A stretch of 64,000 nucleotides of DNA from Minisyncoccota bacterium (GTDB lineage Bacteria > Patescibacteriota > Microgenomatia > UBA1400 > UBA12028). Positions 21,470 to 64,000 of this stretch are shown here, one piece after another. Where the stretch lies: the NCBI GenBank assembly GCA_016211945.1, contig JACRHV010000003.1:69631-133630 (forward strand), written 5' to 3'. Made by a program: the position numbers and the translations under genes. A model generated the notes under the pieces. The model made no database searches. It was not told the origin of the DNA and saw nothing but the letters and a program-made list of their open reading frames with translations. The stretch's first letter is position 1, and each line of letters opens with the position of its first letter.

Positions 21470-21497
21470 TAAATAGATCAATTTTACGGATATGTTG

Positions 21498-23263: not shown

Positions 23264-23292
23264 ACATTCCTTCCATTGTTACTGAAATACTG

Positions 23293-25890: not shown

Positions 25891-25914
25891 ATATCCTCTT
25901 TATTTACTTTGTTG

Positions 25915-25997
25915 TGCCAGGTGTAGGATTCGAACCTACGGAGACCGAAGCCAACAGATTTACAGTCTGTCCTCGTTGACCGCTTGAGTAACCTGGC
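25915..25997 (-). tRNA. tRNA-Tyr (anticodon GTA), type II with long variable arm
   Basis: Anticodon arm CAGACTGTAAATCTG matches bacterial tRNA-Tyr. Long variable arm TTGGCTTCGGTCTCCG; T-arm TAGGTTCGAATCCTA; acceptor GCCAGGT/ACCTGGC. Confidence 0.85.
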
Positions 25998-26083: not shown

Positions 26084-26158
26084 GCCTGGGTAGTTTAGTG
26101 GTAAAACAAACCCTTGGTAAGGGTTAGACCGTGAGTCCGATTCTCACTCCAGGCTCCA
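26084..26158 (+). tRNA. tRNA-Thr (anticodon GGT), CCA encoded
   Basis: GCCTGGG TA GTTT AGTGGTA AAAC A AACCC TTGGTAA GGGTT AGAC CGTGAG TCCGATT CTCAC TCCAGGC T CCA. Confidence 0.8.
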
Positions 26159-38147: not shown

Positions 38148-38163
38148 TTTATCAATCTTTTTG

Positions 38164-38235
38164 TGTCCCCGCCGGGAATCGAACCTGGATTTAAGGTTTA
38201 GGAAACCTCCGTTCTGTCCGTTGAACTACGGGGAC
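38164..38235 (-). tRNA. tRNA-Arg (anticodon CCT)
   Basis: GTCCCCG TA GTTC AACGGACA GAAC G GAGGT TTCCTAA ACCTT ... TTCGATT ... CGGGGAC A. The T-stem has an A-C mismatch. Confidence 0.7.
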
Positions 38236-38822: not shown

Positions 38823-38857
38823 ATCTTTTGTACTTTATGTTTTTTCCTCAAATCTTG

Positions 38858-38930
38858 TCGGGGTGCCCGGACTCGAACCGGGGGCCTCATCGTCCCGAAC
38901 GATGCGCGCTACCAACTGCGCTACACCCCG
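38858..38930 (-). tRNA. tRNA-Pro (anticodon CGG)
   Basis: CGGGGTG TA GCGC AGTTGGTA GCGC G CATCG TTCGGGA CGATG AGGCC CCCGG TTCGAGT CCGGG CACCCCG A. The C1-G72 pair is typical of tRNA-Pro. Confidence 0.85.
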
Positions 38931-50044: not shown

Positions 50045-50695
50045 ATGTTCACTGCCCAATCATTCGCCGTTGTTGGAGCTATCCTCATAAGTTATATCTG
50101 GGTTCGCACTCCAGAACTTGCGCCATATTCACTTCAGCTTACCGCAGGCCTCGTCCTTGCGTACATCATGATGAAGCGTGTAGCAAAAACACATATCTTT
50201 CATATCGCTCCGTCATCTACTACAGCTGAGGTGGGTGTGTTTACTACCGCATTGTTTATGCTCATTGGGTATACAGGCGGCGTCACCTCAATATTCCTTC
50301 CACTGCTCTATCTCCTCCTCTTTATCGGCGTCCTCTCACTCCACACCACAACCATTATTCTCTTTGAGTTTTGCATTCCACTGTACTTGTGGGCACTCGG
50401 ACCGGTGCCAATGACACAACATCAACTCGCAACACTTCTTTCCTTCCCCATTCTTCTCCCCCTCTTGGTGTTTGCGCGTAAGCAATACACAACCGCACAA
50501 CAAGAGAAAAAAGTAGAGGAAAAACTCGCAGATCAAACATTCTCTGCCGCACTGTTTCTTTCAACATTTCTGAAACCAAAACTTCAGCATATTCTTGAAC
50601 TTTCTAACTATCCTGACCACAATAAACGAGGCATTCAGAAACAGCTTTCCCTAACGATAGAGGAACTCGACGATGTTCTCAAAGAAACAGAGTAA
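50045..50695 (+). CDS. hypothetical membrane protein
   Basis: About 6 TM N-terminal half, soluble C-terminal tail. Overlaps the start of the surface-protein cluster. Confidence 0.4.
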   Translation: MFTAQSFAVVGAILISYIWVRTPELAPYSLQLTAGLVLAYIMMKRVAKTHIFHIAPSSTTAEVGVFTTALFMLIGYTGGVTSIFLPLLYLLLFIGVLSLHTTTIILFEFCIPLYLWALGPVPMTQHQLATLLSFPILLPLLVFARKQYTTAQQEKKVEEKLADQTFSAALFLSTFLKPKLQHILELSNYPDHNKRGIQKQLSLTIEELDDVLKETE

Positions 50696-51425
50696 TCGAA
50701 CGGTGGTTGGTCGAGGGATCGGCATTGTACTCGGTCTCATCTTTTTTGTTTTCTTTCTCCCCAAGGCATCCGCAAACATGTCATCGAACAGTTTTATTAT
50801 TCAGTTCAACAATCTCAACATGACATCCGGATCAAAAACAAGTAGTTCGTATAAGGTGACCGATACTGTCGGCCAAAACGCACCGGGAAAGTACGGAACG
50901 ACGGGGTACATTGTGAAAGCGGGGTTCCAGTACATCTATACCATCGGTAATTTTTCATTTTCTATTTCAAATACGATGATTAATTTTGGATTGCTCACGC
51001 CAAACACCTTTGCCACCGGCACAACAACACTCACTGTTTCCGCAAAAGGCGCCGGAGGATATACCGTAACCACTTATGAAAACTACCCGCTCAAAAAAAT
51101 CGGAACCTCGGCGACAATCGCGGATACGACATGCAACGCGGGGACATGCACAGAGGGCACTGCCGGAGTATGGACCGACGCAACAAAACCAGGATTTGGA
51201 TACAACATGACCGGATCAGACATCCCTGCCGCCTTTGTCGACGCAACATACTTCAAGCAGTTTGCGAACTATTCGCAAAACGAGCCCCCGCAAACTATCA
51301 TGAGTAACGCCGGAGTTGTAAAAAATCGACAAGCGACGGTGACGTATAAAGTCGCGGTGTCCGGAAATCAAACGGCGGGAAACTACGAGAACAACATTAC
51401 ATACATTGCAACACCGGGATACTAG
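50673..51425 (+). CDS. secreted beta-rich surface protein (WxL-like domain candidate), paralogous to C-terminus of 52438..53871
   Basis: Signal peptide ...LPKASA. S/T/G-rich beta sequence. Shared C-terminal block YENYPLKKIGTSATIA...GFGYNMTG...SQNEPPQTI...GNYENNITYIATPGY, versus YELKKMGTSTTIA...GFGYGLNY...SNSEPAQTI...GDYENNITYTATATF in the larger paralog. Confidence 0.5.
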   Translation: MFSKKQSNRTVVGRGIGIVLGLIFFVFFLPKASANMSSNSFIIQFNNLNMTSGSKTSSSYKVTDTVGQNAPGKYGTTGYIVKAGFQYIYTIGNFSFSISNTMINFGLLTPNTFATGTTTLTVSAKGAGGYTVTTYENYPLKKIGTSATIADTTCNAGTCTEGTAGVWTDATKPGFGYNMTGSDIPAAFVDATYFKQFANYSQNEPPQTIMSNAGVVKNRQATVTYKVAVSGNQTAGNYENNITYIATPGY

Positions 51426-51428
51426 CGT

Positions 51429-52418
51429 ATGAAAAAAATAATGTTTTTTACCCTAGTCGTATCTATACTCCTTTTTCCAAAGTCTTTGTCTGCGCAAGAC
51501 CAACAAAAAACATCCCTTTCTATTTCACCACCGCTTTCCGAGATCGTGATTCAACCGGGGAAGTCGGTAACGCAGGCGTTTAACATCACCAATGAGGGGT
51601 CTGTTAATCTTGAGGTCATTCCAACGGTAGTCCCGTTTGCGCCGCATCCGGAAACTGGTGAGCCTGTTCTTTTGCTCAATTCCACACGGTTTCCCTTTGC
51701 GACACTGCAAAATCTGGATAAAGCATTAGATAAGCCGTTTCTTCTGAAAGCAAAGCAGTCCGACCAACTCGTGCTCCGCATCGCCATTCCTGAAAAAGAA
51801 AAAGAGAAAGATTATTACGTCACACTCCTTCTTCAGACAAAACCGTCAGGCCTCACACAACTCAACGAAACGGGTTCTATTTCACAAGCGTATCTTGGTG
51901 TCCATCTCCTTGTCTCGGTTTCAAAATCCGGTGAGGATAAAGGAAATCTCACAATACACCAGTTTAAGTCGGCAAAGTTCCTTGATACGTTCTCGGATAT
52001 CTCTCCAAAACTTTTCGTCAAGAACAACGGAACGACATTCACGAAAGCACACGGTGAAATCAAGATCATTTCGCTGACCGGAGAGATCATAAAACTGTTT
52101 CCCATTCTCCCGGAAAATGTGTTGTCCGGCGGAGTGCGCGAACTCCACACCTCGCTTCCAGATCCGGAGGACGCAAAAAGTGCTATACCCGCACCTTTCA
52201 CATACAAACCTCTATTTCTTCTTGGATCATACACCGTAACGGCACGCGTGTTTGCGGAAAACCAAATAGCGGAAGAGGTGACTATTCAAGTATTTGCGTT
52301 TCCGTTTTCTTTGGTAGCGTTTATTATTTCACTCTACTTTACGCGACATGTTATTGTGTCTGTGAGAGAAAAACGCGAAACGAAGGCGAAAGTTGTTGAC
52401 AGAATATCAAAAGAATGA
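51429..52418 (+). CDS. CscA/DUF916-like cell-surface protein with C-terminal TM anchor
   Basis: Signal peptide (MKKIMFFTLVVSILLFPKSLSA), beta-sandwich start SISPPLSEIVIQPGKSVTQAFNITNEG, C-terminal TM plus basic tail (LVAFIISLYFTRHVIVSVREKRETKAK). Confidence 0.5.
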   Translation: MKKIMFFTLVVSILLFPKSLSAQDQQKTSLSISPPLSEIVIQPGKSVTQAFNITNEGSVNLEVIPTVVPFAPHPETGEPVLLLNSTRFPFATLQNLDKALDKPFLLKAKQSDQLVLRIAIPEKEKEKDYYVTLLLQTKPSGLTQLNETGSISQAYLGVHLLVSVSKSGEDKGNLTIHQFKSAKFLDTFSDISPKLFVKNNGTTFTKAHGEIKIISLTGEIIKLFPILPENVLSGGVRELHTSLPDPEDAKSAIPAPFTYKPLFLLGSYTVTARVFAENQIAEEVTIQVFAFPFSLVAFIISLYFTRHVIVSVREKRETKAKVVDRISKE

Positions 52419-52437
52419 CCTAAATAGCGATGAACAT

Positions 52438-53871
52438 ATGAAAAACCGATGGGTGGTGAAGTTTTTTTTGCTTGCGTGCTTTGTCGTGTTTCTTGTGGTG
52501 CCCGCTCATCTTCAACAAACGCGTTCGGCAAACCTCACTTCCGTATCCGACACGCTTTCAAGCTCCCACCTCTCCTTCTATGGATTGATGGGATCCGGGA
52601 ATACCGTTGGTGAAACACTCATTCTCATCAACACCACAACCGCCCCCTCAACCAGCTCAAGCCAGCTCGCATCGCCATCTGCCGGAACGGTAAAGATCGG
52701 AAGTAATATTTATAACTTGAGTGGCACCATGCCAAATAATGATCAGAGTAAATTTAGTATCTCCAGTGGTCTAACCTCTGGTGATCAAACCGCGGGTAAT
52801 GCAATCATCGCAACACAGTCAGCCAGTCATACCGTTCGCTTCTCTACTGCAACCGCCGTTCCAAGTGGTTCGTTCCGCGTCCTCATTCAGGCAACAACAA
52901 ACTCAGGAAGTTCGAATGACGGTATTCCAGACGGTGACGGATTTGATTTTGGCGCATCTGCACCAACCGTAACCTGTCCAACCGACAACTCGTATTACGA
53001 CTTTGTGACAGGGACAGCAACGGCGCAGGCGGTCACGATAAACTCGGTAAAGTATCACGTGTTTGAGTGCCGCTACTCCGGAACAGGCCAGGCAAGCGCG
53101 AGCTTCGCCTCCAACCCTATTACTGTCACCTCACTCATCAACCCTGCGCCAAAAAGCGGCCATGCTGTTGGGACAAACGACGCCTACAACATCATCGTGC
53201 AGAACATGGACTACACCTACACCATGGTTGATCAAACCGCTCTGCAGGTTGGAGTCATCGAGTCTGTCCGTGTGTCCGCTACCGTAGCGCCGCAAATTAC
53301 CTTCCGTATTGCCGGTCTTCCCTCAGGAAATACCTCCGCCTGCGGGACCGCAACAGACGTGACCACAACCCCAACCACGGTTCCTTTTGGCCAAGTGTCC
53401 ATCACCGCGTTTATGCATGCGGGCCAGGCACTTGATGTTTCTACCAACGCTATTGGCGGGTATGCGGTAACAACACAGGCAAACTACGAACTGAAAAAAA
53501 TGGGAACTTCCACTACTATAGCAGGTGCGACTGGAAACGGTGGAAATGTGACCTACGGCGCAAAGGGGCGATGGGACTCCACAACGTATAAAGGGTTTGG
53601 GTATGGGTTGAACTACATCAGTGCAATTTCCGGATCAGGAACTGCGGCATTTGACTACGCAGATACCGATGGGAACTGTTCCGGCGGAACATTCTGTGCA
53701 AAACAATTCCCAGACCTTTCAAACAGCGAGCCCGCGCAAACCATCTTTTCATCCTCCACGGTTGCAGACACAGAGAACGTCAATGTGTGTTACAAGATCG
53801 TCATCAGCAATGTGCAGGCCGCCGGCGACTACGAAAATAACATTACCTATACCGCGACAGCGACGTTTTAA
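52438..53871 (+). CDS. large secreted beta-rich surface protein (WxL-like candidate)
   Basis: Signal peptide MKNRWVVKFFLLACFVVFLVVPAHL. Long S/T/G/N-rich region. C-terminal ~200 aa homologous to the 250-aa protein upstream. Confidence 0.5.
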   Translation: MKNRWVVKFFLLACFVVFLVVPAHLQQTRSANLTSVSDTLSSSHLSFYGLMGSGNTVGETLILINTTTAPSTSSSQLASPSAGTVKIGSNIYNLSGTMPNNDQSKFSISSGLTSGDQTAGNAIIATQSASHTVRFSTATAVPSGSFRVLIQATTNSGSSNDGIPDGDGFDFGASAPTVTCPTDNSYYDFVTGTATAQAVTINSVKYHVFECRYSGTGQASASFASNPITVTSLINPAPKSGHAVGTNDAYNIIVQNMDYTYTMVDQTALQVGVIESVRVSATVAPQITFRIAGLPSGNTSACGTATDVTTTPTTVPFGQVSITAFMHAGQALDVSTNAIGGYAVTTQANYELKKMGTSTTIAGATGNGGNVTYGAKGRWDSTTYKGFGYGLNYISAISGSGTAAFDYADTDGNCSGGTFCAKQFPDLSNSEPAQTIFSSSTVADTENVNVCYKIVISNVQAAGDYENNITYTATATF

Positions 53872-53882
53872 GGAGTTGTGAT

Positions 53883-54938
53883 ATGAAATGCCACCTGCCC
53901 CATTTTTTCCGCGTACTCGGTGCGTGTGTTGTGTTTGTCAGTCTTGCCGTGATTCCTGTTTTCGCGGTTCAATCGAGCACACCTGAAGAAATACTCGGAT
54001 CACTTGACTCGCTTGCCTTCACCGCAGTTCCCCCTCGAACCGAGGTTATCGAGGTAAAACCCGGAGACACCTATCAGACAAATATCAAGTTCCGCAATCT
54101 CACAAAACAGTCACAAGCAATCTCGACAGAAACGCTAGACTTTGTGATTGATAAGGACGGAAAGACGCCCATCCCTGTTACACAAACCGAGGCCGCTCCG
54201 CTCCGGTGGAGTCTCGCCTCGTGGATCACGGTTTCCCCTTCACAACGTGCCGTTACACCAAACGAACTCGCAACATATGACGTGGTGATCCAGGTGCCAA
54301 AGGACGCACTCCCCGGTGGACACTATGCAATGGTGGTTCACACGCCCGTTGCGATGAGTGCACTCCAGAACAAACCGCAGGAGAAAAATGCACAGTCCGC
54401 CTCTGCAGTCAATCCAAAGCTCGGAACACTCTTTTACGTAAAGGTCGCAGGAAACGTCCACGAGGAGGCCTTTATCCGATCCTTCATCGCTCCGTCATGG
54501 GTCGAGTTTGGACCGGTCAACTTTTCATATAGTGTCGAAAACTTGTCCGACGTCCATATCACTCCGCAGTCCTCGATTGTGGTCAAGGACATGATCGGTA
54601 GAACAGTGGACACGATTGTTGTTGAACCACTGAATATTTTTCCATATTCCACTCGAACGTTTACGGCGATGTTGGATAAGATTTGGGGAGTTGGCCCGTA
54701 CACTGCGCGCCTGTCCGTTCCGTACGGAACCGGAGGTAAGGTGCTCACCACAACGCTCGTGTTCTGGATGTTTCCGTACCGCATTGTGCTTGCAGTCCTC
54801 GTCATACTCATGACGCTTTTGGCGATTGTGATTGTGGTTCGCCGCCACTTGGAACACCGATACGACATGAAGGCAAAACAGATCGAGATACTCGAGGATC
54901 GTATTCGAGAACTGGAAAAGCGTTCGAGAGAACAGTAG
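53883..54938 (+). CDS. second CscA/DUF916-like surface protein with C-terminal TM anchor
   Basis: Signal peptide. TAVPPRTEVIEVKPGDTYQTNIKFRN parallels SISPPLSEIVIQPGKSVTQAFNITN of 51429..52418. C-terminal TM (IVLAVLVILMTLLAIVIVV) plus coiled-coil tail. Confidence 0.5.
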   Translation: MKCHLPHFFRVLGACVVFVSLAVIPVFAVQSSTPEEILGSLDSLAFTAVPPRTEVIEVKPGDTYQTNIKFRNLTKQSQAISTETLDFVIDKDGKTPIPVTQTEAAPLRWSLASWITVSPSQRAVTPNELATYDVVIQVPKDALPGGHYAMVVHTPVAMSALQNKPQEKNAQSASAVNPKLGTLFYVKVAGNVHEEAFIRSFIAPSWVEFGPVNFSYSVENLSDVHITPQSSIVVKDMIGRTVDTIVVEPLNIFPYSTRTFTAMLDKIWGVGPYTARLSVPYGTGGKVLTTTLVFWMFPYRIVLAVLVILMTLLAIVIVVRRHLEHRYDMKAKQIEILEDRIRELEKRSREQ

Positions 54939-54988
54939 AGGTATTCTCTACCCTGCTTTTGTGGCGTTTCTGATACACTGGATGTGGT

Positions 54989-56683
54989 ATGTTTTTCTCT
55001 GCCCGAACTGCTACGCGGATTCTTTTGATTGTCTTTGGGATAGGTGTCCTTTTTTTCTCAAGTCGTGTTTTTTCCGCCATTAACGACACTGGTGTGGACA
55101 CCGAGAATGGTGAGAACCTCGCCACCAATCCTAAAACGCGTACCACAGCCGTAAGCGCAACCGTTGTTGATATCTATCCTCCAACCGCCCCCATTCTCGT
55201 CGCACCGGACAATAACGGAAAGATTCGCACACAACTCGTCACCTTCACCTGGAAATCGAGCGTGGACGAGGAGGGTGGTACCGCAAAATACCAACTGTAT
55301 CTTGACGGGAGCTTGCTGTATGACAGCATTACCACGCCGACAAAAAACGCACCGGACTATACTTATACCGATCGTAATACGGTTTCCAATTTAGTCATGA
55401 AAAACGCGCTCGCCGAAGGATCGCACACCTGGAAAATTCGAGGATTTGATACCAATGGGAACTATGCAGACTCGGCAACATGGAGCTTTACCATCGACAC
55501 CATTGCGCCCGTCCTTTTGGTCAAACAGATCGGCGACCAAACCGTTTCTATCTCTGCACAAGATGTCACCACCATTCCTACTTCTCCCGTCATCACAACC
55601 ACCAACCCGCCAACAGTCTCCGGAACAACCGAGGCAAGCGTGACGGTCAAACTCACCATGACACTTCCCAACGGCCAGGTTACGCAACTGACAACCACAT
55701 CCGGAACCGACGGAACATTTTCCTTCACCCTCCCCACATTGTCGCTCAACATCATTGCGAAACTGCAGATTAGTGCAAACGACAGCGTGGGAAATACCTC
55801 TTTGCTTGATAATATTCCCGTTCAGGTGATTCGAAAAACATTGAAACTCCCCGCACCACTCGATAAAGTCATTCCGGAAATTCCCATTATCCCGCCGGAA
55901 GAAATTAAGCATGAGATCGCGGAAAGATTCATTCGACCATATGTACCCGAACCTGTTGTTGATATTGTGGACACCGTTGCGCCGATCGGAAACTCGGCCA
56001 TTGGGTTTGTGTTGCCGCTTGCTCGTTTGCTTGCTGTTTTGTGGATCACCGGAACGTCATTGTGGAGTATGAGTGTTGGTCTCTTGGCAAAGGCCGCGCA
56101 TACGATCGGCCTTATTCCATTGTGGCTTTTCCCGCCCGTCGATCACATCCATGGCCTCGTGTTCGACAGTCAGACGAAAGACCCCATCCCCTTTGCGCTT
56201 CTCACTATTGTGCAGATGAAGGATCGAGGACCCACCGTTGTTGATCAAGTCGTCGCCGATCAGCATGGTGAATATGAAACCATTGCGCTCGACCTCGCAG
56301 GAAGGTATGAAATTGTTCCAACACATCGCGATTACCTCTTCATGGAAGAGGAAGCGAAACGCAAATTTTCCGGGATTGCGGAGGTGTACACCGGCCAGCC
56401 TATAACGACTGAACTGTGTGATGTTACGCCGTCGATTGGCGATGATGAGCGCGGACTTGAATGTCATGAAGACAAACTCTTGGTGCATTACTATGTGCCG
56501 ATGGAACAGAGGAAAAAATCATCGTTTATTGCACGTGTTATTGAGAAGACTGCGGAACTTCCCTCGAGTGGTCTTGCGGGCGCGGTTGTTTTGATGATCG
56601 GTATCGCCTTCTTCTACCCGACGCCATGGAACATAGGCATGTGCGTTGCGTATATCGCGGTTGCGGTGCATCGGTCGTTTTAA
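54989..56683 (+). CDS. large surface/membrane protein with Ig/FN3-like repeats, CarboxypepD_reg-like domain and C-terminal TM segments
   Basis: Signal peptide. Ig-like repeats (TFTWKSSVDEEGG...HTWKIRGFDTNGN). GLVFDSQTKDPIPFALLTIVQ...DQHGEYE resembles the carboxypeptidase-regulatory-like fold. Three or more TM segments near the C-terminus. Confidence 0.45.
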   Translation: MFFSARTATRILLIVFGIGVLFFSSRVFSAINDTGVDTENGENLATNPKTRTTAVSATVVDIYPPTAPILVAPDNNGKIRTQLVTFTWKSSVDEEGGTAKYQLYLDGSLLYDSITTPTKNAPDYTYTDRNTVSNLVMKNALAEGSHTWKIRGFDTNGNYADSATWSFTIDTIAPVLLVKQIGDQTVSISAQDVTTIPTSPVITTTNPPTVSGTTEASVTVKLTMTLPNGQVTQLTTTSGTDGTFSFTLPTLSLNIIAKLQISANDSVGNTSLLDNIPVQVIRKTLKLPAPLDKVIPEIPIIPPEEIKHEIAERFIRPYVPEPVVDIVDTVAPIGNSAIGFVLPLARLLAVLWITGTSLWSMSVGLLAKAAHTIGLIPLWLFPPVDHIHGLVFDSQTKDPIPFALLTIVQMKDRGPTVVDQVVADQHGEYETIALDLAGRYEIVPTHRDYLFMEEEAKRKFSGIAEVYTGQPITTELCDVTPSIGDDERGLECHEDKLLVHYYVPMEQRKKSSFIARVIEKTAELPSSGLAGAVVLMIGIAFFYPTPWNIGMCVAYIAVAVHRSF

Positions 56684-56751: not shown

Positions 56752-57783
56752 ATGTTTACTCCTCAATATACAATCACCAATCACCTTCTCTCGAATATTA
56801 TCCGCATTCATGGTCTTGTCAAAGATCTTAACGATCGAAGATTTGCAAAAGTTGTGTTTGTGGAATTTGAAAAAATCGCACGTGAAGTCTCGTCTTATGC
56901 TTCAACCAGTATTGAAGGCAATCCCCTCTCACTTACAGAAGTCAAAAGAGTGTTGAAGTCAAAACCAGAACACATCCGAGATAGTGAAAAAGAAGTCCTG
57001 AATTACAATCAAGCACTTGAACACTTGAACCAATTACTTCAATCCGAAAAACTTGAACTCTCCCTCAAGCTTATCCTGAATATTCATAAACACATAACAA
57101 GAGGACTACTTCTTCGTGATGAATCCGGGAGACTGCGCAAAAATCATGTCGTGGTCCATGATCCAAGAACGGGTGAAATAGTCTACCTTCCTCCTGATGT
57201 AAATCAGGTACGCGGATTGGTGAACGACCTCATCGCTTTCGTTCAGAAAAATAGTAAGAAGATTGATCCCTTGATTCTTGCTGGTATTTTTCATAAACAC
57301 ATGGTGATTATCCATCCGTTCATGGACGGCAACGGCAGAACAACCAGACTTGTAACCAAGGTACTTTTAGCAAACATGGGATTGAACACCTTTAACCTCT
57401 TTAGTTTCGAGAATTATTACAACAAAAATGTTACAAAATACTTTCAAGCAGTTGGAGAATATGGGGACTATAATGAAGTAGCACATTCGATCAACTACAC
57501 GCTTTGGCTCGAGTATTTCACCGATGGGTTAATCGATGAATTGTTACGCGTACAAAAATTGTTACCAACATTTGGCAATACACCAGATACAACACTGGAA
57601 ATACATCATCGTAAAATGCTTGAATACATAAAACAGCATGGATTTATCCGTGATCGAGATTACGCGAAGCTCACCGAGAGGGCCAAGGCAACACGTACCA
57701 AAGACTTCCAAAAACTTCTGGACTTAGGACTCATTGAGCGTAAGGGGAAAGGAAGATCGGTCTATTACACTCAAAAAGTCTAA
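56752..57783 (+). CDS. Fic/Doc family protein (putative AMPylator)
   Basis: Canonical Fic motif HPFMDGNGRTTRL, with a helical N-domain and C-terminal winged-helix-like region. Confidence 0.8.
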   Translation: MFTPQYTITNHLLSNIIRIHGLVKDLNDRRFAKVVFVEFEKIAREVSSYASTSIEGNPLSLTEVKRVLKSKPEHIRDSEKEVLNYNQALEHLNQLLQSEKLELSLKLILNIHKHITRGLLLRDESGRLRKNHVVVHDPRTGEIVYLPPDVNQVRGLVNDLIAFVQKNSKKIDPLILAGIFHKHMVIIHPFMDGNGRTTRLVTKVLLANMGLNTFNLFSFENYYNKNVTKYFQAVGEYGDYNEVAHSINYTLWLEYFTDGLIDELLRVQKLLPTFGNTPDTTLEIHHRKMLEYIKQHGFIRDRDYAKLTERAKATRTKDFQKLLDLGLIERKGKGRSVYYTQKV

Positions 57784-57999: not shown

Positions 58000-58824
58000 T
58001 CAGTGTGATCGATCGAGTGAAAAGACGACAGTGGATAAACGGAGGTATTCCTGAACACATGCCACGTGGGGAAACTGCGCGCCTAACACCTGGGTTGGGA
58101 GGTCCGGATCTCGAGCAAGAAGGCTGAAAAGATCACTTGAAAGGCGAGAATATTGATGTTTTCGTCCGTCGTTCAATGCTTTTTCTTTCTGCACAACGCT
58201 TAGCAGACTTGTTGTTAATTTGCTAAGCTTCGTGTAGTCTTTGGCTCGTTCATCCAGATTCCACACCGAGCGACAGAACTCCCGTTCATCCCCAATGAGA
58301 AATCGTTTGGATTCAAGAAAAACAAAAAGGCCCATGACCTTTGCGCGCATAAGCTCGTTCTTTAACTTTTCGCCGATTGGATACGGCGAGATATAAACCG
58401 CACGCTCCAATGAGACAAATCCATGCGTTCTCAGGAGATTCCGAAGGGTCCTGTAGGCGTACAACGACTCCGGCGCATACCGAACATTTGAAAAAATGGC
58501 TAGGCGCCACGCGGCATCCCACTTTTTTTTCTTAAATACTGTTTCCGGCAAAGAAGAAAAGAGATGTTCTCTTCCGGCGGCGGTCATGCGGATAAAGATT
58601 TTTCCGGCTTGCTGGACAGTGACAACCAAACCCTGCTGCTGCATTGTGGAGACAGCACTGCGTATTGAGTTCGGGCTAAAATCGAAGAGCCTCCACTGAA
58701 GCTCTGGATAGGTGAGCAGACGTTGCGCCGCTGAGGAGAAAACGTCTGAAGGATGTTGAACCGATTCATTCTCTGGAATACTGAAAGCGAGCGAGAAAAG
58801 GAGATGCGATTTAAGATCGAGCAT
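58000..58824 (-). CDS. PaaX-family transcriptional regulator
   Basis: N-terminal wHTH-like segment and PaaX C-terminal-domain pattern KKWDAAWRLAIFSNV (W.G.W.LV.F signature). Confidence 0.5.
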   Translation of the reverse strand: MLDLKSHLLFSLAFSIPENESVQHPSDVFSSAAQRLLTYPELQWRLFDFSPNSIRSAVSTMQQQGLVVTVQQAGKIFIRMTAAGREHLFSSLPETVFKKKKWDAAWRLAIFSNVRYAPESLYAYRTLRNLLRTHGFVSLERAVYISPYPIGEKLKNELMRAKVMGLFVFLESKRFLIGDEREFCRSVWNLDERAKDYTKLSKLTTSLLSVVQKEKALNDGRKHQYSRLSSDLFSLLARDPDLPTQVLGAQFPHVACVQEYLRLSTVVFSLDRSH

Positions 58825-59320
58825 GAAACTATCATAGCAGATGGTGCGGAATGACCGGGAGAGTTCCGACCTAGTTCCGATTTCTTTTTCCTCTCTTTTC
58901 TATTTCCGCACCATTAATAATGGTTTTCACGATAAAATGATACTCCTTATCTTCGTCTTTCTTGCATTCGGTATTCCTTTTCTTCGTATTATTTTTCATT
59001 TCTCGGTAAAAATGTTGATAAATCTCAAGTGATTTTTTTCTGTTGTAAATACGTTAAACAAGAGACTAATATATTCATCAATTCACAGTATCAAAAATAT
59101 GGGGAAAAACGGCAAAAAACACAAAAAACATGATCTTCATCGTGCATATTCTGATATATTTGTATGCAAATGAAAAGAAATTGTGAAATATAACACTCTC
59201 ACCGTTTTTCTCTCTTCTGTAGTCTTGATATTCCCTCTTGACCTCAACCTCTGGTCGCGCCTACAGTGACGTTCATGCGCGGAAGCTTGATTGTCTAATC
59301 TCGTCTAACGCCAGAGGAAA

Positions 59321-62300
59321 ATGAGCAAAGAAGAATCTGTCCAAACCATCCAACGCTCAGAGGCATTGCTCCGGCAATTCGCCGATTTTTTGGCAGCACA
59401 ACAGCTCACTGAAAAGTCGATCCGCAACTATGTTTCAGATACACGCAAGTTTTTCGATTGGCTCGGGGGGCAAAAACCCAACGGTCAGGAAGATTGGGAC
59501 TGGATCGCTTCTATCCCCCAATCTGTTCGCGCATATCGCGCCTTTCTTCTTTCCCAGGCTGCACCTCTGGCCACCATTAACCGCCATCTCTCCTCTCTCC
59601 GCCAGTTTGGCGCTTTTTTAAACACCGTTCACCAGCTTCACCTCAAGTTGGATCACCTTCAAAACGTCTCTGTCCACGTCGAGCATGAGCAAGAAGTGTC
59701 GCATGTCCTCAACCACCAGGCTATTCACGCATTCGGTTTAGCACTTGAACATGAGCAGTGCTCACAGTCCACATGCGAAAATTACCTTGGTGATATCCGC
59801 CAATTTGCCGATTTTCTTGGAACAGAGTCGCTCTTTTCTGACCGAATAAAACCCCTTGCCGTGGAGTTTACGGGAAATTTGGCAAAAAATGGGGTCGCAG
59901 AAGCAACGATTCGACGCAAAATGGTGACCCTGAAGCGATTTTATGCGTGGGCAACCAAGTCTCACTACATCAAAACAAATGTTTTTGAATCATTCGGGGA
60001 GAAAGTCGGGCGAGTTGTTGGTGAGACTGCACAAAAATTTGTGCCGTTGGCGTTTTTTGAGAGAAATCGAGAAAACCAACAAAAAACCTCATCTTCCGAT
60101 GAGGTTTATGTCTGTGAAGAGTTACGTCTCCACGCGCTTGATAACCGTAACGAACAGTCTACCAGTCAAACAGGGATCTTGTCAAGACTGTGGCGGAGGG
60201 ATAGGGATTCGAACCCTAACCCCGCTCACGCGGAGTCACATCAGGTATCAACTGAGTTCCCAACCGTTGGGATTACCCCTCCAATTGGAATGTTTGGACC
60301 GACCACCACAGAATCGTCATACTCTCAAATTGCAGATGAAAAATCAACAACATCTTACTCTATCACCAACAAAAAACCCTCTGTTTCCAGAGGGTTTTTC
60401 AATGTAGAGTTTTCTCCCTACACAGTTGATACCTGTAACGTCAAGTCTACCAAACTTCCCCATCCCCTGTCAAGGCTCTACTCCGCCTACACCCGCTGGC
60501 CAGTGAGTTCCTATCTCCATCTTGCCGTTCTCGTTCTTTTTGTCTCGATGCTTGGGATTTTTGGCTATCAACAGTTTTTCCGTGATGCCGAGCAGAAGCT
60601 CGCTTTCCCCACCTCTCTCACCAGACCAAATCGCATTCTCTCCTTCCAGGGTCGCCTCACAGACACTGCCGGCACTCCACTCACTGTTGCAACCAACTTT
60701 ACCTTCAAACTGTATGACGCACTTACCAGTGGCAATCAGCTCTGGACATCTGGGACGTGTTCAATCACTCCGGATCAAGATGGCATCTTCTCTACTTTGC
60801 TTGGGAGTAGTTGCGGAAGCGAGATAGCCTCTGGTGTGTTTAGTGAAAATCAAAATGTATATCTCGAGGTAACAGTTGCGGCGGAGACGCTCACACCAAG
60901 ACAACAGATTGCCACGGTTGGATATGCGCTGAATGCCGAAACGCTCCAAGGCTACCCCGCTTCTGCGAGTGCGGTGGAAAATACGGTCCTTGTGATGAAC
61001 AACTCTGGTCAAGTGTTATTAGGCAACGCCTCGCCCACACTCCGTTCTACTTCTGGTACATTCGCGGTTCAGGGCAATGCGCTCAATGTGTCCACTAATA
61101 CCGGCACCGGAGGAAATATTACGCTTGCTCCGGATGGCGCTGGACAAGTGAGTTTGATTGGCGGCACCACAACACAGGATTTCATCGATATTACAAACGC
61201 GAACCTCACGACGGGAAAGTTGATGAAGGGGACGGTCGGAAATAACAATACTGGGTACAAATTTTTATCATTTGTTGGCGGCTCAACTCCCTCTGAAAAG
61301 TTCTATGTCAATGCCCTTGGAGGGGTGTATGCAGGCAACTCACTTTTTGCTCCAGTGGCGACCATTAGTGCAACGAATACGAGCGCTACACCGCTCATTA
61401 TCAACGGAACTGGAGGACAAATTTTCTCAATCGCAAATGGTGGGAACATTGTGGGTGCCGGAACCTTGACTGGATTAACAGGACTAACCTCGAGTGGAAC
61501 CATCACATTCTCAGGATTAAATACCGCAGGTGCGGTTGCGTATACACAGTCTGGTGGAGTTTTAGGAGTGACGGCACAGGGCGTGTCTGGGTACTTGTTA
61601 GGATCTGGTGGAGCTGGCACACCCACATGGATTGACCCCGCAACGGTTGGAAGCAACTATTGGCAGCTTACGAACAAGGTGATTTCGCCGGGAAACTCGA
61701 CGCATGACTTAGCGGTAGGAGGAAACGCGACAAGTTCTGCGTTGTTCCAGGTTTTTGGAAACACTGGGAATGCGACAACCGCAGGAACACTGACGTTTAA
61801 TGGGGCGGCATACTCGAATAACGTGATTGCGGCAACAAAGATGTCTGGGTTACAGATTGGAAATAGTAGCACGGGGAATATTATTTTTAATGGGGGGAAA
61901 ATAGGAGTTGGAACCGCAAACCCTCAAGGAACTCTTCATGTTGCTAGTAGTGCCAATATTGATGATCTTGTTGTTAATACCGAAGCCACAACGAATAACA
62001 TTGTTGATTCTAGTTTTGAGACTGGATTGGGGGGTTGGTACGCTACTTCAGTCAATGCCACTATTACACAATCAACTACTCAATCATATGTTGGTTCTAA
62101 AAGTTTAAAAAACGTAGCCACTGCAACAAATGAAGGCGCTTATATTACCATGTCTAGTGGATTTACTGCAGGAGTTTTAAATACTTTTTCTTCCTATGGA
62201 TATTTGGAATCAGGAACAGGTTGGCATTTGGTTTTCTTCTATTACGATGGCTCCTGGCATGCAGTTAACTCGCCTACAATAACTACTGTTGGCTCTTGGG

Positions 62301-64000
62301 TCAAGACAAGTGTTACTGTTAGTTTGCCTGCTGGAACAACCCAAATTCAACCGAGATTAGTAAGTGATGGTACGGCAACAATATATTTTGATGGCGTACA
62401 ATTAGAGGCAAAAGACCATGCCAGTCCTTATGCTGATGGTTCATTAGGATCTGGTTATAGTTGGACAGGAACTCCACATGCTTCAACTTCTATACGAAGA
62501 GCTGGGACAGTTTATGCTTATCAAGCAATTAACAGCGCTGGTGGAATAGGTGCCACTTCAGGAAGTTTATATCCAACATTACAAATTGATCAAGCTGGAA
62601 CAGGTGCTCTTTTTGTTGCCTCTGTTTCTGGAACACAAAAATTTATTATTGATAACACGGGCAATGTGGGGGTTGGGACGACAAATCCGTTGAATAAATT
62701 AAATGTTGTCGCGGACACTAACGTCTATACTAGTGCTCAATCTCTGGCCGGTTTAAGAGTTGATGATGGAACAAGTGATACGGCTTTATTATTAGGTGTA
62801 AACGCAGCTGGAGATGCGACTTACATTCAAGGTGTTCAACCACTAATATCTTGGACAAATCGTCCAATTTTATTACAGCCAAATGGTGGTAACGTCGGCA
62901 TCGGCAACACATCCCCTACCTACAAACTTGACGTCACCGGCTCTGCTTCGGTCTCTGCCAACCTCATGGCCGGTGGTCAAGTCCAACTCGGAAGATTCGG
63001 CGCAAATCCAACCGGCATTGGCGCGGGCGCGCTCTACTTCAACACCACAGACAGCAAGATTTACTACTACGACGGATCGAGTTGGTCACAAGTTGGATCG
63101 GGCGCAGGAGGAAACAATAGCCCATGGGATGAGTTAAACGGCACAATTGTCCCCAAAAACTCGACAGAAGATGTGTTGATTGGTGGTCAAGCAACAACCT
63201 CGGCAAAATTTGCGTTCTTAAATGTAAACACCGGCACACCGGTCGCAAGTTTCTCTGGAAACCTCACACTTACTCCTGCAACTTCTGCCATCATCCAAAC
63301 CACCAACATGATTCCATTGGTCATTGGCTCGGCATCAACCGGATCTATCCAGCTCTCGCCAAAAGCATCCACCGGCTTGTTCATCAACGGTTCTGGAAAC
63401 GTGGGCATCGGCAACACCGCACCAACGGTGGCACTCGACGTGACCGGCCAAGGCAAGTTCTCGTCGCTCGTTACCGCATCAAACGCACTCACTGTGACCA
63501 CCGGCCTTACGCAAGCGCTTGGTGGTCTCACGGTCTCCGGCAACAGCGTGGCGGCATCAGGACAAAACTTTGAGGCGTTTGTCACCTCTGGAACAGCGTA
63601 TGTTCAAGGGTATGATCGAGGCGGATCGGCATACATCCCACTCAACATTGCCGGTTCATACACCAAGTTCTCCAACGGAAGCGTTGGGATTGGTACCTCT
63701 GGTGCACCGGCAGAAAAACTCGAGATCAATGCTGGTGCGGCCGCAGGAGGGATTCGATTAAACGCAGATACCGGTGTTGATACGCGTTTGGTGTTCTATG
63801 AAAATGCCGTCTTAAAGGCAGGCCTCACCTACACCACAAGCGACGCAACCTTCCGCCTCTCCAATGCTGGAAGCGATATTGTGACACTCACGAGCGCGGG
63901 AAAAGTCGGCGTTGGAAACACCGCACCAGACGGTAAATTCCAAGTCACGGGTGCGGCAGTTGGAAAAGCGCTCGCCATCTTGAACGAAACTGGCGACCAA
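59321..64000 (+). CDS. giant open reading frame, 3'-truncated by the window end. Contents: N-terminal tandem integrase core-binding (SAM-like) domains; an embedded antisense tRNA-like element; a TM helix; tail-fibre/beta-helix-like repeats with a CBM4/9-like module
   Basis: Checked codon by codon: ATG at 59321 (RBS CCAGAGGAAA; in-frame TAA at 59306) to 64000 with no stop (1560 codons). The ORF track does not list it, consistent with omitting ORFs that lack a stop. Alternative model: a decayed integrase-N-terminal ORF plus a separate giant gene starting at ATG 60290 just past the tRNA-like element. TM helix VSSYLHLAVLVLFVSMLGIFGY at ~60500..60570. Confidence 0.6.
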   Translation, partial: MSKEESVQTIQRSEALLRQFADFLAAQQLTEKSIRNYVSDTRKFFDWLGGQKPNGQEDWDWIASIPQSVRAYRAFLLSQAAPLATINRHLSSLRQFGAFLNTVHQLHLKLDHLQNVSVHVEHEQEVSHVLNHQAIHAFGLALEHEQCSQSTCENYLGDIRQFADFLGTESLFSDRIKPLAVEFTGNLAKNGVAEATIRRKMVTLKRFYAWATKSHYIKTNVFESFGEKVGRVVGETAQKFVPLAFFERNRENQQKTSSSDEVYVCEELRLHALDNRNEQSTSQTGILSRLWRRDRDSNPNPAHAESHQVSTEFPTVGITPPIGMFGPTTTESSYSQIADEKSTTSYSITNKKPSVSRGFFNVEFSPYTVDTCNVKSTKLPHPLSRLYSAYTRWPVSSYLHLAVLVLFVSMLGIFGYQQFFRDAEQKLAFPTSLTRPNRILSFQGRLTDTAGTPLTVATNFTFKLYDALTSGNQLWTSGTCSITPDQDGIFSTLLGSSCGSEIASGVFSENQNVYLEVTVAAETLTPRQQIATVGYALNAETLQGYPASASAVENTVLVMNNSGQVLLGNASPTLRSTSGTFAVQGNALNVSTNTGTGGNITLAPDGAGQVSLIGGTTTQDFIDITNANLTTGKLMKGTVGNNNTGYKFLSFVGGSTPSEKFYVNALGGVYAGNSLFAPVATISATNTSATPLIINGTGGQIFSIANGGNIVGAGTLTGLTGLTSSGTITFSGLNTAGAVAYTQSGGVLGVTAQGVSGYLLGSGGAGTPTWIDPATVGSNYWQLTNKVISPGNSTHDLAVGGNATSSALFQVFGNTGNATTAGTLTFNGAAYSNNVIAATKMSGLQIGNSSTGNIIFNGGKIGVGTANPQGTLHVASSANIDDLVVNTEATTNNIVDSSFETGLGGWYATSVNATITQSTTQSYVGSKSLKNVATATNEGAYITMSSGFTAGVLNTFSSYGYLESGTGWHLVFFYYDGSWHAVNSPTITTVGSWVKTSVTVSLPAGTTQIQPRLVSDGTATIYFDGVQLEAKDHASPYADGSLGSGYSWTGTPHASTSIRRAGTVYAYQAINSAGGIGATSGSLYPTLQIDQAGTGALFVASVSGTQKFIIDNTGNVGVGTTNPLNKLNVVADTNVYTSAQSLAGLRVDDGTSDTALLLGVNAAGDATYIQGVQPLISWTNRPILLQPNGGNVGIGNTSPTYKLDVTGSASVSANLMAGGQVQLGRFGANPTGIGAGALYFNTTDSKIYYYDGSSWSQVGSGAGGNNSPWDELNGTIVPKNSTEDVLIGGQATTSAKFAFLNVNTGTPVASFSGNLTLTPATSAIIQTTNMIPLVIGSASTGSIQLSPKASTGLFINGSGNVGIGNTAPTVALDVTGQGKFSSLVTASNALTVTTGLTQALGGLTVSGNSVAASGQNFEAFVTSGTAYVQGYDRGGSAYIPLNIAGSYTKFSNGSVGIGTSGAPAEKLEINAGAAAGGIRLNADTGVDTRLVFYENAVLKAGLTYTTSDATFRLSNAGSDIVTLTSAGKVGVGNTAPDGKFQVTGAAVGKALAILNETGDQ
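60191..60282 (-). tRNA. tRNA-like element (type-II-like, CCA encoded) with anomalous anticodon arm, embedded antisense in the giant ORF
   Basis: Perfect T-arm TAGGG-TTCGAAT-CCCTA. 7-bp acceptor GGAGGGG/TCCCTCC (one G-U) plus G-CCA. D-arm TCCC-AACGGTT-GGGA. 7-bp extra-arm hairpin ACTCCGC-GTGA-GCGGGGT. The only foldable anticodon arm reads loop TTGATAC (GAT, Ile-like) with a C-U mismatch, which is abnormal for a long-variable-arm tRNA. Confidence 0.5.
61895..63952 (+). repeat. recurrent tail-fibre-like motif G-(N/K)-(V/I)-G-(V/I)-G-(T/N)-(T/A)-x-P-x-x-(K/A/T)-L-x-V-x-G in the giant ORF
   Basis: Copies at 61895..61950 (GKIGVGTANPQGTLHVAS), 62660..62707 (GNVGVGTTNPLNKLNV), 62888..62941 (GNVGIGNTSPTYKLDVTG), 63395..63449 (GNVGIGNTAPTVALDVTG), 63899..63952 (GKVGVGNTAPDGKFQVTG). 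Confidence 0.6.

What the first reader, a model, noticed from the sequence alone, without database searches (positions are those of the whole stretch)
59321..64000. Giant (>1560-codon) stop-free reading frame joining integrase-N-terminal domains, a TM helix and tail-fibre-like repeats
One frame is open from 59321 to the end of the window. It joins four parts: (i) two tandem copies of the phage-integrase N-terminal core-binding fold; (ii) a low-complexity stretch that is antisense to a tRNA-like element; (iii) a single TM helix near codon 395; (iv) at least 1150 codons of G-N-V-G-I-G-N-T...KLDV-T-G repeats, typical of phage tail fibres and beta-helix adhesins, with an embedded CBM-like module. 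A cytoplasmic DNA-binding-type domain fused through a TM to a huge extracellular fibre is not a described architecture. Alternatively it is a decayed integrase plus tRNA att-site remnant followed by a separate giant adhesin starting at ATG 60290. Either reading marks an integrated-element scar next to a host- or surface-binding fibre gene.
Basis: partly seen in the sequence, partly recalled or inferred. Interest (0 to 1): 0.85.

Follow-up and report, generated by a model that had tools for sequence, protein, structure and literature searches.

The report
Giant surface-fibre gene hosting a tRNA
The long open frame is one real gene for a giant membrane-anchored, tail-fibre-like surface protein common in a group of tiny symbiotic bacteria. 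In this genome alone, an odd tRNA gene has been inserted backwards into it without breaking the reading frame.

Summary
Observation confirmed: 59321..64000 (+) has no stop for 1,559 codons. It holds two Phage_int_SAM domains, an antisense tRNA (60191..60282, minus strand), one TM helix (aa 395-417) and a tail-fibre-like region.

The fusion is real and conserved.
- 43 of 60 pre-TM regions (the window plus 59 relatives' loci, mostly Microgenomates/Patescibacteria MAGs) carry a SAM-like domain in the same ORF as the TM helix and fibre.
- A full HMMER scan finds 755 cluster representatives at E<=1e-30, up to 6,346 aa.
- Public records call them 'site-specific integrase, partial'. No catalytic domain is detected, so that name looks wrong.
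- The gene lies downstream of Pam-pilus-like genes in 33-37 of 57 genome loci.

The 'decayed integrase plus att-site remnant' reading is not supported. The closest relatives (L004, L005) have one continuous ORF with a 28-40 aa linker and no tRNA.

The window's 144-aa linker holds an in-frame insertion of about 288 nt. It consists of the tRNA, an 82-nt spacer and a duplicated ~110-nt unit.

The tRNA has a Ser-type acceptor stem and T arm, G73, a long variable arm, a long D stem and an Ile GAU anticodon. Its one homologue found (L061) clearly favours a 9/3 'allo-tRNA' fold.

Whether translation still runs through the insert, and what the cytoplasmic recombinase-type domains do, is inferred, not shown.

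The parts
59238..59267 (+). promoter-like site (TTGACC-18-TACAGT) upstream of the giant gene
   Evidence: consensus scan only. It lies in an AT-rich intergenic stretch.
59321..64000 (+). 5' 4.7 kb of the giant gene (at least 1,559 codons; the 3' end lies outside the window)
   Evidence: stop-free frame. The N-terminus aligns with the start of the L004 ORF. Complete relatives are 1,700-2,400 aa, and library members reach 6,346 aa.
59372..59618 (+). SAM-like (recombinase core-binding) domain 1, aa 18-100
   Evidence: PF02899 E 4.3e-12. AF2 helices H3-104.
59732..59990 (+). SAM-like domain 2, aa 138-224
   Evidence: PF02899, PF13495 and PF13102 match. NCBIfam XerC/XerD N-terminal region, 3e-19. 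Foldseek matches recombinase core-binding domains.
59993..60502 (+). cytoplasmic linker. It measures 144 aa between FFER and WPVSSYLH, against 40 aa in L004 and 28 aa in L005.
60075..60185 (.). repeat unit U1, a duplicate of the native linker unit that ends in LSRLW. It holds hairpin 60084-60107 and a minus-strand promoter-like site at 60185..60156.
   Evidence: direct repeats D2 and D5 at spacings of 288 and 290 nt. The U1/U2 alignment is 78% identical. Promoter and terminator scan. The minus-strand RNA folds with z = -3.6.
60191..60282 (-). tRNA-Sec-like / allo-tRNA-like gene. Anticodon GAU, G73, encoded CCA, long variable arm, 5-6 bp D stem, and a Ser-type acceptor stem and T arm.
60283..60364 (.). 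82-nt spacer, which is the 5' leader side of the tRNA. Part of the insertion.
   Evidence: absent from L004 and L005. No similarity elsewhere in the sequences held.
60365..60473 (.). repeat unit U2, whose native 3' end encodes ...PLSRLY. It holds hairpin 60372-60399, a minus-strand promoter-like site at 60473..60444, and a 16-nt plus-sense copy of the tRNA anticodon arm at 60420-60435.
   Evidence: (I4, I8)
60503..60571 (+). single transmembrane helix (aa 395-417), preceded by the family motif SRLY..WP
   Evidence: hydropathy scan. A TM helix sits at the same place in all 59 relatives' loci examined.
60629..60916 (+). first extracellular domain, a predicted Ig-like beta-sandwich and the family hallmark
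   Evidence: AF2 pLDDT above 90 for residues 20-115 of the model. Foldseek gives only weak beta-sandwich matches. It is 44-76% identical across most of the 57 genome loci. Weak Bdello_MAT_N hit.
61982..62431 (+). beta-sandwich module of the GTA head-spike-fibre / CBM-like type
   Evidence: NF048003 at 39.3 bits against a cut-off of 36. phrog_14138 minor tail protein, 1e-8.
61895..64000 (+). fibre region with 6 copies of GxVG[IV]G..P..L.V, starting at nt 61895, 62660, 62888, 63395, 63677 and 63899
   Evidence: motif scan. phrog_9942 (1e-12) and phrog_18345 (4e-7), both tail fibre families.

Best explanation
59321..64000 is the first 4.7 kb of a single gene for a giant, N-in/C-out membrane-anchored, tail-fibre-like surface protein of a Microgenomates (CPR/Patescibacteria) bacterium.

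Family plan:
- one or two cytoplasmic tyrosine-recombinase core-binding (SAM-like) four-helix bundles, with no catalytic domain detected;
- a short disordered linker;
- an (S/P)RLY..WP juxtamembrane motif and one TM helix;
- an Ig-like domain;
- a long Gly/Thr/Asn-rich fibre with tail-fibre motifs and a spike-fibre/CBM-like module. Some relatives also carry an endosialidase-type chaperone domain.

The gene sits downstream of the Pam pilus operon. It most likely forms a host- or surface-binding fibre.

The cytoplasmic bundles most likely act as a docking or DNA-binding module. Many relatives split the last bundle between a soluble upstream protein and the fibre protein, which suggests the bundle can assemble from two chains.

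In this genome only, the linker has taken up an in-frame, stop-free insertion of about 288 nt. It consists of a minus-strand tRNA-Sec-like/allo-tRNA-like gene (Ser-type identity elements, Ile anticodon GAU), 82 nt of leader, and a duplicate of the ~110-nt linker unit.

I infer that the protein is still made as one chain with 96 extra residues in a disordered cytoplasmic linker.

Shown: the architecture, its conservation, the synteny, the insertion and the tRNA features.
Inferred: membrane topology, adhesion role, role of the bundles, read-through translation, and tRNA activity.
For: - The ORF is open, and both domains and the tRNA are confirmed.
- 43 of 60 pre-TM regions contain PF02899 in the same ORF as the TM helix and fibre.
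- 755 library representatives score E<=1e-30, and in most of the top 150 the best-scoring stretch runs from the SAM part of the profile to the N-domain.
- L004 and L005 have a continuous ORF with a 28-40 aa linker and no tRNA.
- dN/dS against L004 is 0.25-0.40 in the SAM domains and 0.09-0.11 in the TM helix and fibre.
- Tail-fibre and spike-fibre family hits. Relatives carry Peptidase_S74 and YadA_head.
- Pam-like pilin genes lie upstream in 33-37 of 57 genome loci. A preprint notes a tail fibre-like protein co-localising with pam operons.
- The insertion is a multiple of 3 (spacing 288), with 0 in-frame stops against 13 in plus frame 3 and 7-8 in the minus frames.
- 17 loci split the last SAM domain at the same helix 2 | helix 3 point.
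Against: - There are no expression data.
- Hairpin 60372-60399 is followed by TTTTTC on the plus strand. It could terminate the mRNA inside the ORF.
- Convergent tRNA transcription could interfere with the gene.
- Plus frame 2 is also nearly open (1 stop), so base composition explains part of the openness.
- The window ends before the 3' end, so intactness of the whole gene is unproven.
- No independent assembly of the insertion was found. The Logan contig of this organism stops at about 59225, and a protein search across the junction found nothing.
- The fibre N-domain has no significant PDB match.
- DNA binding by the bundles is untested.
Confidence: 0.62

Rival explanations
1. The insertion has functionally split the gene. 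The hairpins act as terminators for plus-strand transcription. The upstream part then gives a SAM1-SAM2 protein from a non-stop or truncated mRNA. The fibre is expressed separately from an internal start (ATG 60290 or GTG 60503). This would mimic the naturally split or SAM-less relatives.
For: - Two GC-containing hairpins with T-runs flank the tRNA.
- Such hairpins are absent from the linkers of 37 fused relatives. Only 3 of them have AT-only hairpins.
- Split variants (17 loci) and SAM-less variants (L025, L057, L058) exist in nature.
Against: - The upstream part has no stop codon, so it would give a non-stop mRNA.
- ATG 60290 has no spaced Shine-Dalgarno motif.
- GTG 60503 would remove the conserved SRLY..WP motif.
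- The T-runs are better on the minus strand than on the plus strand.
- The frame stays open over 161 linker codons.
Confidence: 0.25
2. One reading: a decayed phage integrase and a tRNA att-site remnant from an integrated element, followed by an unrelated giant adhesin gene.
For: The SAM-like domains are of integrase type. The tRNA's 3' half is identical to tRNA-Ser 3' ends, which serve as prophage att sites in viral contigs, for example L065.
Against: - The SAM-TM-fibre fusion is conserved in 43 of 60 pre-TM regions and in hundreds of library proteins, none of which showed a catalytic domain in the scans run.
- The closest relatives lack the tRNA.
- The tRNA is complete, not a 3' fragment.
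- The SAM domains have dN/dS below 1 against L004.
Confidence: 0.03
3. Assembly artefact: the tRNA-bearing segment was joined into the gene by misassembly.
For: No independent contig covers the junction. Public family members are nearly all partial at contig ends.
Against: - The flanking repeats are only 72-78% identical, too diverged to mislead an assembler.
- The insert is exactly in frame and free of stops.
- Both junctions lie in unique sequence.
Confidence: 0.05

Closest known systems
Core-binding (N-terminal SAM-like) domain of tyrosine recombinases (XerC/XerD, Cre, lambda Int; Pfam PF02899, PF13495, PF13102)
   Same: Same four-helix-bundle fold and sequence family.
   Different: Two tandem copies and no catalytic domain. 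The domains are tethered to the membrane as the cytoplasmic tail of a giant surface protein. In 17 relatives the last domain is split between two polypeptides.
Phage tail fibres and endosialidase-type trimeric fibres with an intramolecular chaperone; Bdellovibrio mosaic adhesive trimer fibres; RcGTA head-spike fibre
   Same: GxVGIG..P..L.V motifs, PHROG tail-fibre hits, a GTA_spike_fiber-type module and a weak Bdello_MAT_N match. Relatives carry Peptidase_S74.
   Different: This is a cellular, chromosomal, membrane-anchored protein next to a pilus operon, not a virion part. No Pfam fibre family matches the window's own sequence. Trimer formation is untested.
allo-tRNAs (Mukai et al. 2017, PMC5389517)
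   Same: Long variable arm, long D stem with a small loop, G73 and a non-serine anticodon. A 12-bp acceptor branch can be drawn as 9/3. The homologue L061 favours 9/3 and is picked up by the tRNA-Sec model, which is how allo-tRNAs were first found.
   Different: - A GAU anticodon is not among those listed for 9/3 species in the parts of the paper read (Arg, Leu, UAA).
- The host is a CPR bacterium, not Clostridia, Proteobacteria or Acidobacteria.
- The window copy has only a 4-bp anticodon stem.
- The window copy can also be drawn as an ordinary 7/5 cloverleaf.
Rickettsia palindromic elements and other MITEs that insert in frame into ORFs (review PMC10969869)
   Same: A small structured DNA segment lies inside a protein-coding gene and keeps the frame open.
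   Different: The cargo here is a complete tRNA gene on the opposite strand. It is flanked by a ~110-nt duplication rather than short target-site duplications. No other copies occur in the window or the fetched loci.
ToxR/CadC-type membrane-bound DNA-binding proteins (from general knowledge)
   Same: Topology: an N-terminal cytoplasmic nucleic-acid-binding-type domain, one TM helix, and an extracytoplasmic domain.
   Different: The DNA-binding fold differs (recombinase core-binding, not winged helix). The external part is a fibre of over 1,100 aa. No regulatory role has been tested.

Membership tests
Tyrosine recombinase / phage integrase | N-terminal core-binding (SAM-like) domain | tested here: met
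   PF02899 E 7.7e-20; both copies match individually. Fold match to the Cre, XerA and lambda Int core-binding domains.
Tyrosine recombinase / phage integrase | C-terminal catalytic domain (Pfam Phage_integrase, R-K-H-R-H-Y active site) | tested here: not met
   No catalytic-domain hit in aa 1-290, in the linker or in aa 324-1560, nor in complete relatives. SAM2 is followed directly by the linker and TM helix. It is therefore not an integrase, despite the public names.
Tail-fibre-like trimeric fibre proteins | sequence similarity to tail-fibre families | tested here: met
   phrog_9942 1.1e-12, phrog_18345 3.6e-7, phrog_14138 1.1e-8. NF048003 scores above its cut-off.
Tail-fibre-like trimeric fibre proteins | C-terminal intramolecular chaperone (Peptidase_S74) and trimeric assembly | not testable with these tools
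   The 3' end lies outside the window. Peptidase_S74 is present in relatives L031 and L058. No multimer prediction was available.
CPR SAM-TM-fibre family (defined here) | SAM-like domain(s), TM helix and the conserved Ig-like N-domain in one ORF | tested here: met
CPR SAM-TM-fibre family (defined here) | position downstream of Pam-pilus-like genes | tested here: met
   Window genes 50673-54938 have homologues upstream of the fibre gene in 33-37 of 57 genome loci.
allo-tRNA (Mukai 2017) | 12-bp acceptor branch arranged 8/4 or 9/3 instead of 7/5 | tested here: inconclusive
   Window tRNA: 9/3 -41.7, 8/4 -40.6, 7/5 -38.9 kcal/mol, all without mismatches. L061: 9/3 -36.1 against 7/5 -27.8 with a U-C mismatch. 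Pairs 8 and 9 covary between the two (U-A, A-U against C-G, G-C). Only two sequences are available.
allo-tRNA (Mukai 2017) | long variable arm and G73/U73 discriminator (SerRS identity) | tested here: met
   Variable-arm stem of 7-9 bp, G73, and an acceptor stem and T arm identical to bacterial tRNA-Ser.
allo-tRNA (Mukai 2017) | tRNA-Sec-like long D stem with a small loop | tested here: met
   Window: 5-6 bp stem with a 3-5 nt loop. L061: 5 bp stem with a tetraloop.
allo-tRNA (Mukai 2017) | anticodon stem longer than the canonical 5 bp (6 bp in L061) | tested here: not met
   The window copy has 4 bp flanked by mismatches. L061 has 6 bp. The window copy may be a decaying member.
Canonical bacterial tRNA-Ile(GAU) | class I structure (short variable loop) | tested here: not met
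   92 nt with a long variable arm. The discriminator is G, not the A73 of E. coli tRNA-Ile (from general knowledge).
In-frame selfish insertions (RPE/MITE type) | multiple dispersed copies of the element in the genome | tested here: not met
   No other copy of U1/U2, the spacer or the tRNA occurs in the 64-kb window or in the 509 kb of the first 60 fetched loci. The whole genome was not available.

The most novel reading that the evidence does not exclude
The insert may be a small mobile or addiction-type RNA cassette. It would pair a potentially toxic serine-accepting tRNA that reads Ile codons (allo-tRNA(GAU), the first in a CPR bacterium) with two copies of a ~75-nt minus-strand sRNA unit.

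Each sRNA unit keeps its own promoter and terminator. One unit is complementary to the tRNA anticodon arm at 15 of 16 positions.

The cassette would have landed in, and now be co-expressed antisense to, a giant host-attachment fibre gene. In parallel, the fibre family itself could be a contact-sensing device that couples an external fibre to cytoplasmic DNA-binding recombinase domains.
Probability: 0.12. Interest if true: 0.85.

Novelty: new variant of a known kind. Interest (0 to 1): 0.6.

Why it matters
Three points.

1. A large family of giant CPR surface fibres, next to the newly described Pam pilus, is hidden in databases under the name 'site-specific integrase'.
- Recognising it corrects annotation and mobile-element counts in Patescibacteria.
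- It also gives a candidate host-attachment protein for these episymbionts.

2. A recombinase core-binding domain used as the cytoplasmic tail of a surface fibre is an unexplained domain use.
- In many lineages that domain is split between two proteins.
- The hypotheses are testable: DNA tethering, signalling or docking.

3. A complete tRNA gene nested antisense and in frame inside a conserved bacterial gene is rare.
- This tRNA combines serine identity elements with an isoleucine anticodon.
- If it is charged and used it would mistranslate Ile codons.
- If it is not used, it adds to the evidence that allo-tRNA-like genes travel with selfish elements.

Tried and rejected
- Alternative genetic code: it would not create an open frame, and the neighbouring genes read normally in table 11.
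- Extending the contig: the only Logan contig carrying the neighbouring gene ends at about 59225.
- Protein search across the linker junction found nothing.
- PDB sequence search with the SAM region found nothing.
- Pfam on the fibre segments gave nothing.
- Foldseek with the extracellular N-domain gave only weak beta-sandwich matches.
- Viral-contig scan for the GAU/long-arm tRNA pattern gave 0 hits.
- A scan for the T-arm plus acceptor pattern gave 75 hits. All those recognised as tRNA genes were ordinary tRNA-Ser, apart from one ARAGORN Leu call with the same UGA anticodon loop. This shows only that the 3' half is Ser-type.
- Phage BLAST gave T-arm matches only.
- Group I/II intron or another known RNA in the gaps of the split variants: no Rfam hit.
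- Programmed frameshift in L002/L003: rejected because real stops, fresh ATG starts and variable gaps are present.
- A kissing-loop between a U2 sRNA hairpin and the tRNA anticodon loop: the minimum-energy fold does not place that sequence in a hairpin loop.
Full report
**Observation**

The frame starting at ATG 59321 is open to the end of the window, 1,559 codons. The nearest in-frame upstream stop ends at 59308, and an AGAGGA motif precedes the ATG.
- Residues 1-230 contain two Phage_int_SAM domains. PF02899 scores E 7.7e-20 overall and 4.3e-12 for the first copy alone.
- An AlphaFold model of aa 1-244 (pLDDT 86) shows two four-helix bundles. Its best PDB matches are the core-binding domains of Cre, XerA, lambda Int, Tn1549 Int and XerD.
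- No catalytic integrase domain is found anywhere in the ORF.
- ARAGORN finds a 92-nt tRNA on the minus strand at 60191..60282. In a local scan it scores 37.8 bits against the Rfam tRNA model, whose gathering score is 29.
- Hydropathy gives one TM helix, aa 395-417.
- The fibre part has no Pfam match. It does match PHROG tail-fibre families (phrog_9942, 1e-12). Its 'CBM-like' module matches NCBIfam GTA_spike_fiber above the cut-off.
- The GxVG[IV]G..P..L.V motif occurs six times, between aa 859 and 1527, not throughout.

**Organism and neighbourhood**

Upstream genes include weak matches to CPR Pam pilin and PamT, a Big_13-type protein, a Fic protein and a PaaX-like regulator. The related loci come almost entirely from Microgenomates/Patescibacteria MAGs.

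**The fusion is the family norm**

A pattern scan of species-representative genomes returned 57 loci that encode the conserved extracellular N-domain.
- All of them place a TM helix just before that domain.
- Of 60 pre-TM N-terminal regions taken from the same ORF (the window, the 57 genome loci, and L002 and L003), 43 match Phage_int_SAM_1.
- Complete members are 1,700-2,400 aa. They carry SAM domains at the N-terminus, and some carry Peptidase_S74 or YadA_head.
- A full HMMER scan of 1.84 billion representatives used a profile spanning the SAM part, the TM helix and the N-domain. It found 755 proteins at E<=1e-30.
- In most of the top 150, up to 6,346 aa long, the best-scoring stretch starts within the first 15 profile positions.
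- Public sources call these proteins 'site-specific integrase, partial', 'site-specific recombinase XerD' or hypothetical.
- I found no paper describing the architecture.
- A 2026 preprint on the CPR Pam pilus notes a 'tail fibre-like protein' that co-localises with pam operons.
- Homologues of the window's Pam-like genes lie upstream of the fibre gene in 33-37 of the 57 genome loci.

**The tRNA is an insertion**

The two closest relatives are L004 (about 76-79% identical in the N-domain) and L005. Each has one continuous ORF: SAM1, SAM2, linker, TM helix, fibre.
- Between the shared landmarks FFER and WPVSSYLH, the relatives' linkers are 40 and 28 aa. The window's is 144 aa.
- No tRNA is found in any of the 57 genome loci, nor in L002 or L003. 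The first 60 fetched loci total 509 kb.
- The extra DNA is the tRNA (92 nt), an 82-nt spacer, and a second copy of a ~110-nt unit (U1 60075-60185, U2 60365-60473).
- The two units are 72-78% identical and spaced 288-290 nt apart.
- U2 ends in ...PLSRLY, the family's juxtamembrane motif. U1 ends in ...ILSRLW, and its edge abuts the CCA end of the tRNA.
- The 288-nt spacing keeps the frame. In the 483-nt linker the ORF frame has 0 stops. The other plus frames have 1 and 13, and the minus frames have 7-8. P(no stop in 96 codons) is about 0.006.
- dN/dS against L004 is below 1 in SAM1 (0.25), SAM2 (0.40), the TM region (0.11) and the fibre (0.09). dS is saturated.

Together this supports one gene whose disordered cytoplasmic linker tolerated an in-frame insertion. 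It does not support a decayed integrase next to an att remnant.

**The tRNA itself**

- Its acceptor stem, T arm, G73 and CCA are those of bacterial tRNA-Ser. All 75 viral-contig matches to the T-arm plus acceptor pattern lie at Ser-type 3' ends. Those recognised as tRNA genes were tRNA-Ser, apart from one ARAGORN Leu call with the same UGA anticodon loop.
- It has a long variable arm.
- Its D arm is unlike tRNA-Ser: a 5-6 bp stem with a small loop. Its anticodon is GAU.
- One homologue was found in metagenomes (L061). It shares acceptor pairs 1-7, G73 and CCA, none of which the search pattern required. The anticodon-arm core and GAU that it also shares were part of the pattern.
- L061 folds with a 9-bp acceptor stem, a 3-bp T stem, a 5-bp D stem with a tetraloop, and a 6-bp anticodon stem.
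- Its best Rfam match is tRNA-Sec, at 34.3 bits, below the gathering score.
- For L061 the 7/5 alternative costs 8 kcal/mol and needs a U-C mismatch.
- For the window copy, the 9/3, 8/4 and 7/5 folds are all possible, at -41.7, -40.6 and -38.9 kcal/mol.
- Positions 8 and 9 and their 3' partners covary between the two sequences (U-A, A-U against C-G, G-C).

These are the features of allo-tRNAs (PMC5389517). In the sections read, 9/3 forms are listed only with Arg, Leu and UAA anticodons, and the hosts are Clostridia, Proteobacteria and Acidobacteria.

The window copy has only a 4-bp anticodon stem, so it may be decaying. It also differs from the genome's own tRNAs. Five of those six lack an encoded CCA. 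The four with a recognisable GATACAAT or TATAAT box carry it 6-20 nt upstream, a box the insert's tRNA lacks.

**Unexplained features of the repeat units**

On the minus strand, both U copies keep an identical TTGACA-18-TGnTAGACT site while the spacer between the hexamers has diverged.
- Both keep a first hairpin that relies on G-U pairs. On the plus strand those pairs would be A-C mismatches.
- Both keep a terminator hairpin whose stem differs by compensatory changes and is followed by a conserved TTTTTTGTTGG.
- The predicted ~75-nt minus-strand RNAs fold with z = -5.8 and -3.6.
- U2 also carries a 15/16 plus-sense copy of the tRNA anticodon arm (I4).
- GC-containing terminator-like hairpins are absent from the linkers of 37 fused relatives.

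This hints at small antisense RNA units linked to the tRNA. I could not test that.

**Mechanism, with confidence**

Most likely (about 0.6): one protein is still made. It would be N-in/C-out, with a fibre that binds host or surface alongside the Pam pilus, and cytoplasmic bundles that bind DNA or a partner. The tRNA insert would be a tolerated passenger in the linker.

The main rival (about 0.25): the hairpins and convergent transcription now split expression in two. That would resemble the natural split variants. Assembly artefact and the att-remnant reading are unlikely.

**Side finding**

In 17 of the relatives' loci the last SAM-like domain is cut at the same helix 2 | helix 3 point into two ORFs. 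The gaps range from a 20-nt overlap to 794 nt. The longer gaps hold 23S_rRNA_IVP four-helix-bundle ORFs, a NYN-domain ORF, and a small conserved ORF. No known RNA family is found there. The cytoplasmic end of this gene family seems to be a repeated landing site for small elements.

Noticed in passing
L002, L003, L013, L018, L022, L024, L028, L030, L032, L036, L038, L043-L046, L048, L054 (junction just upstream of each giant ORF start): In 17 related loci the last SAM-like domain is split between helix 2 and helix 3 into two ORFs. The upstream ORF ends '...TIKNYLSDLRHFLSWL*', and the giant ORF begins with the helix 3-4 half. The gaps range from a 20-nt overlap to 794 nt. This suggests a naturally split domain that may reassemble from two chains.
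   Followed up: partly
L038:1532-2241, L048:5187-5839, L045:580-1278, L018:5169-5698, L013:2057-2852, L044:5217-5431: The long gaps in the split variants carry 23S_rRNA_IVP four-helix-bundle ORFs (E 2e-20 and 6e-8), a NYN-domain ORF (1.5e-19) and a small conserved ORF with the motif W..DPA.EGNPY. No Rfam family matches there.
   Followed up: partly
window 50045-56683: A Pam-pilus-like gene set (weak CPR_Pam_pilin_C and PamT matches) plus a Big_13/Ca_tandemer-type protein. Homologues lie upstream of the giant fibre gene in 33-37 of 57 related loci. This matches a preprint remark that a tail fibre-like protein co-localises with pam operons.
   Followed up: partly
window 56752-57783 (+) and 58000-58824 (-): A Fic-domain protein, found only in this genome's locus, and a PaaX-like regulator conserved just upstream of the fibre gene in 14 related loci.
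   Followed up: partly
window tRNAs at 21497-21568, 23292-23364, 25914-25997, 26084-26158, 38163-38235, 38857-38930: Five of the six ordinary tRNA genes lack an encoded CCA. Four of them (Trp, Thr 23292, Tyr, Arg) sit 6-20 nt downstream of a GATACAAT or TATAAT box. The inserted tRNA differs on both counts.
   Followed up: partly
window 60420-60435 (+) against 60242-60257: A 16-nt plus-sense copy (15/16) of the tRNA anticodon arm lies inside repeat unit U2. A minus-strand transcript of U2 would therefore be complementary to the tRNA anticodon stem-loop. The matching part of U1 is degraded.
   Followed up: partly
window 59943-60407 (+, frame 2): A second plus-strand frame is open for 154 codons across the same region, including the antisense tRNA. 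Base composition therefore contributes to the lack of stops.
   Followed up: no
L061:1-2133 (Ga0194113_10129914): The only homologous GAU/long-arm tRNA sits at the end of a GC-rich contig with no convincing ORFs. The contig also has a weak mraW-RNA-like match at 842-934. Organism and context are unknown.
   Followed up: no
P0003-P0070: Nearly all public family members returned by that search are partial proteins at contig ends. Many of those that carry a source name are called 'site-specific integrase', which looks like a systematic misannotation. These repetitive giant genes also appear to break assemblies often.
   Followed up: partly
L001 (Logan SRR12113407 contig), end at about window 59225: An independent assembly of the same organism breaks in the AT-rich intergenic region just before the giant gene. 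It therefore gives no check on the insertion.
   Followed up: yes
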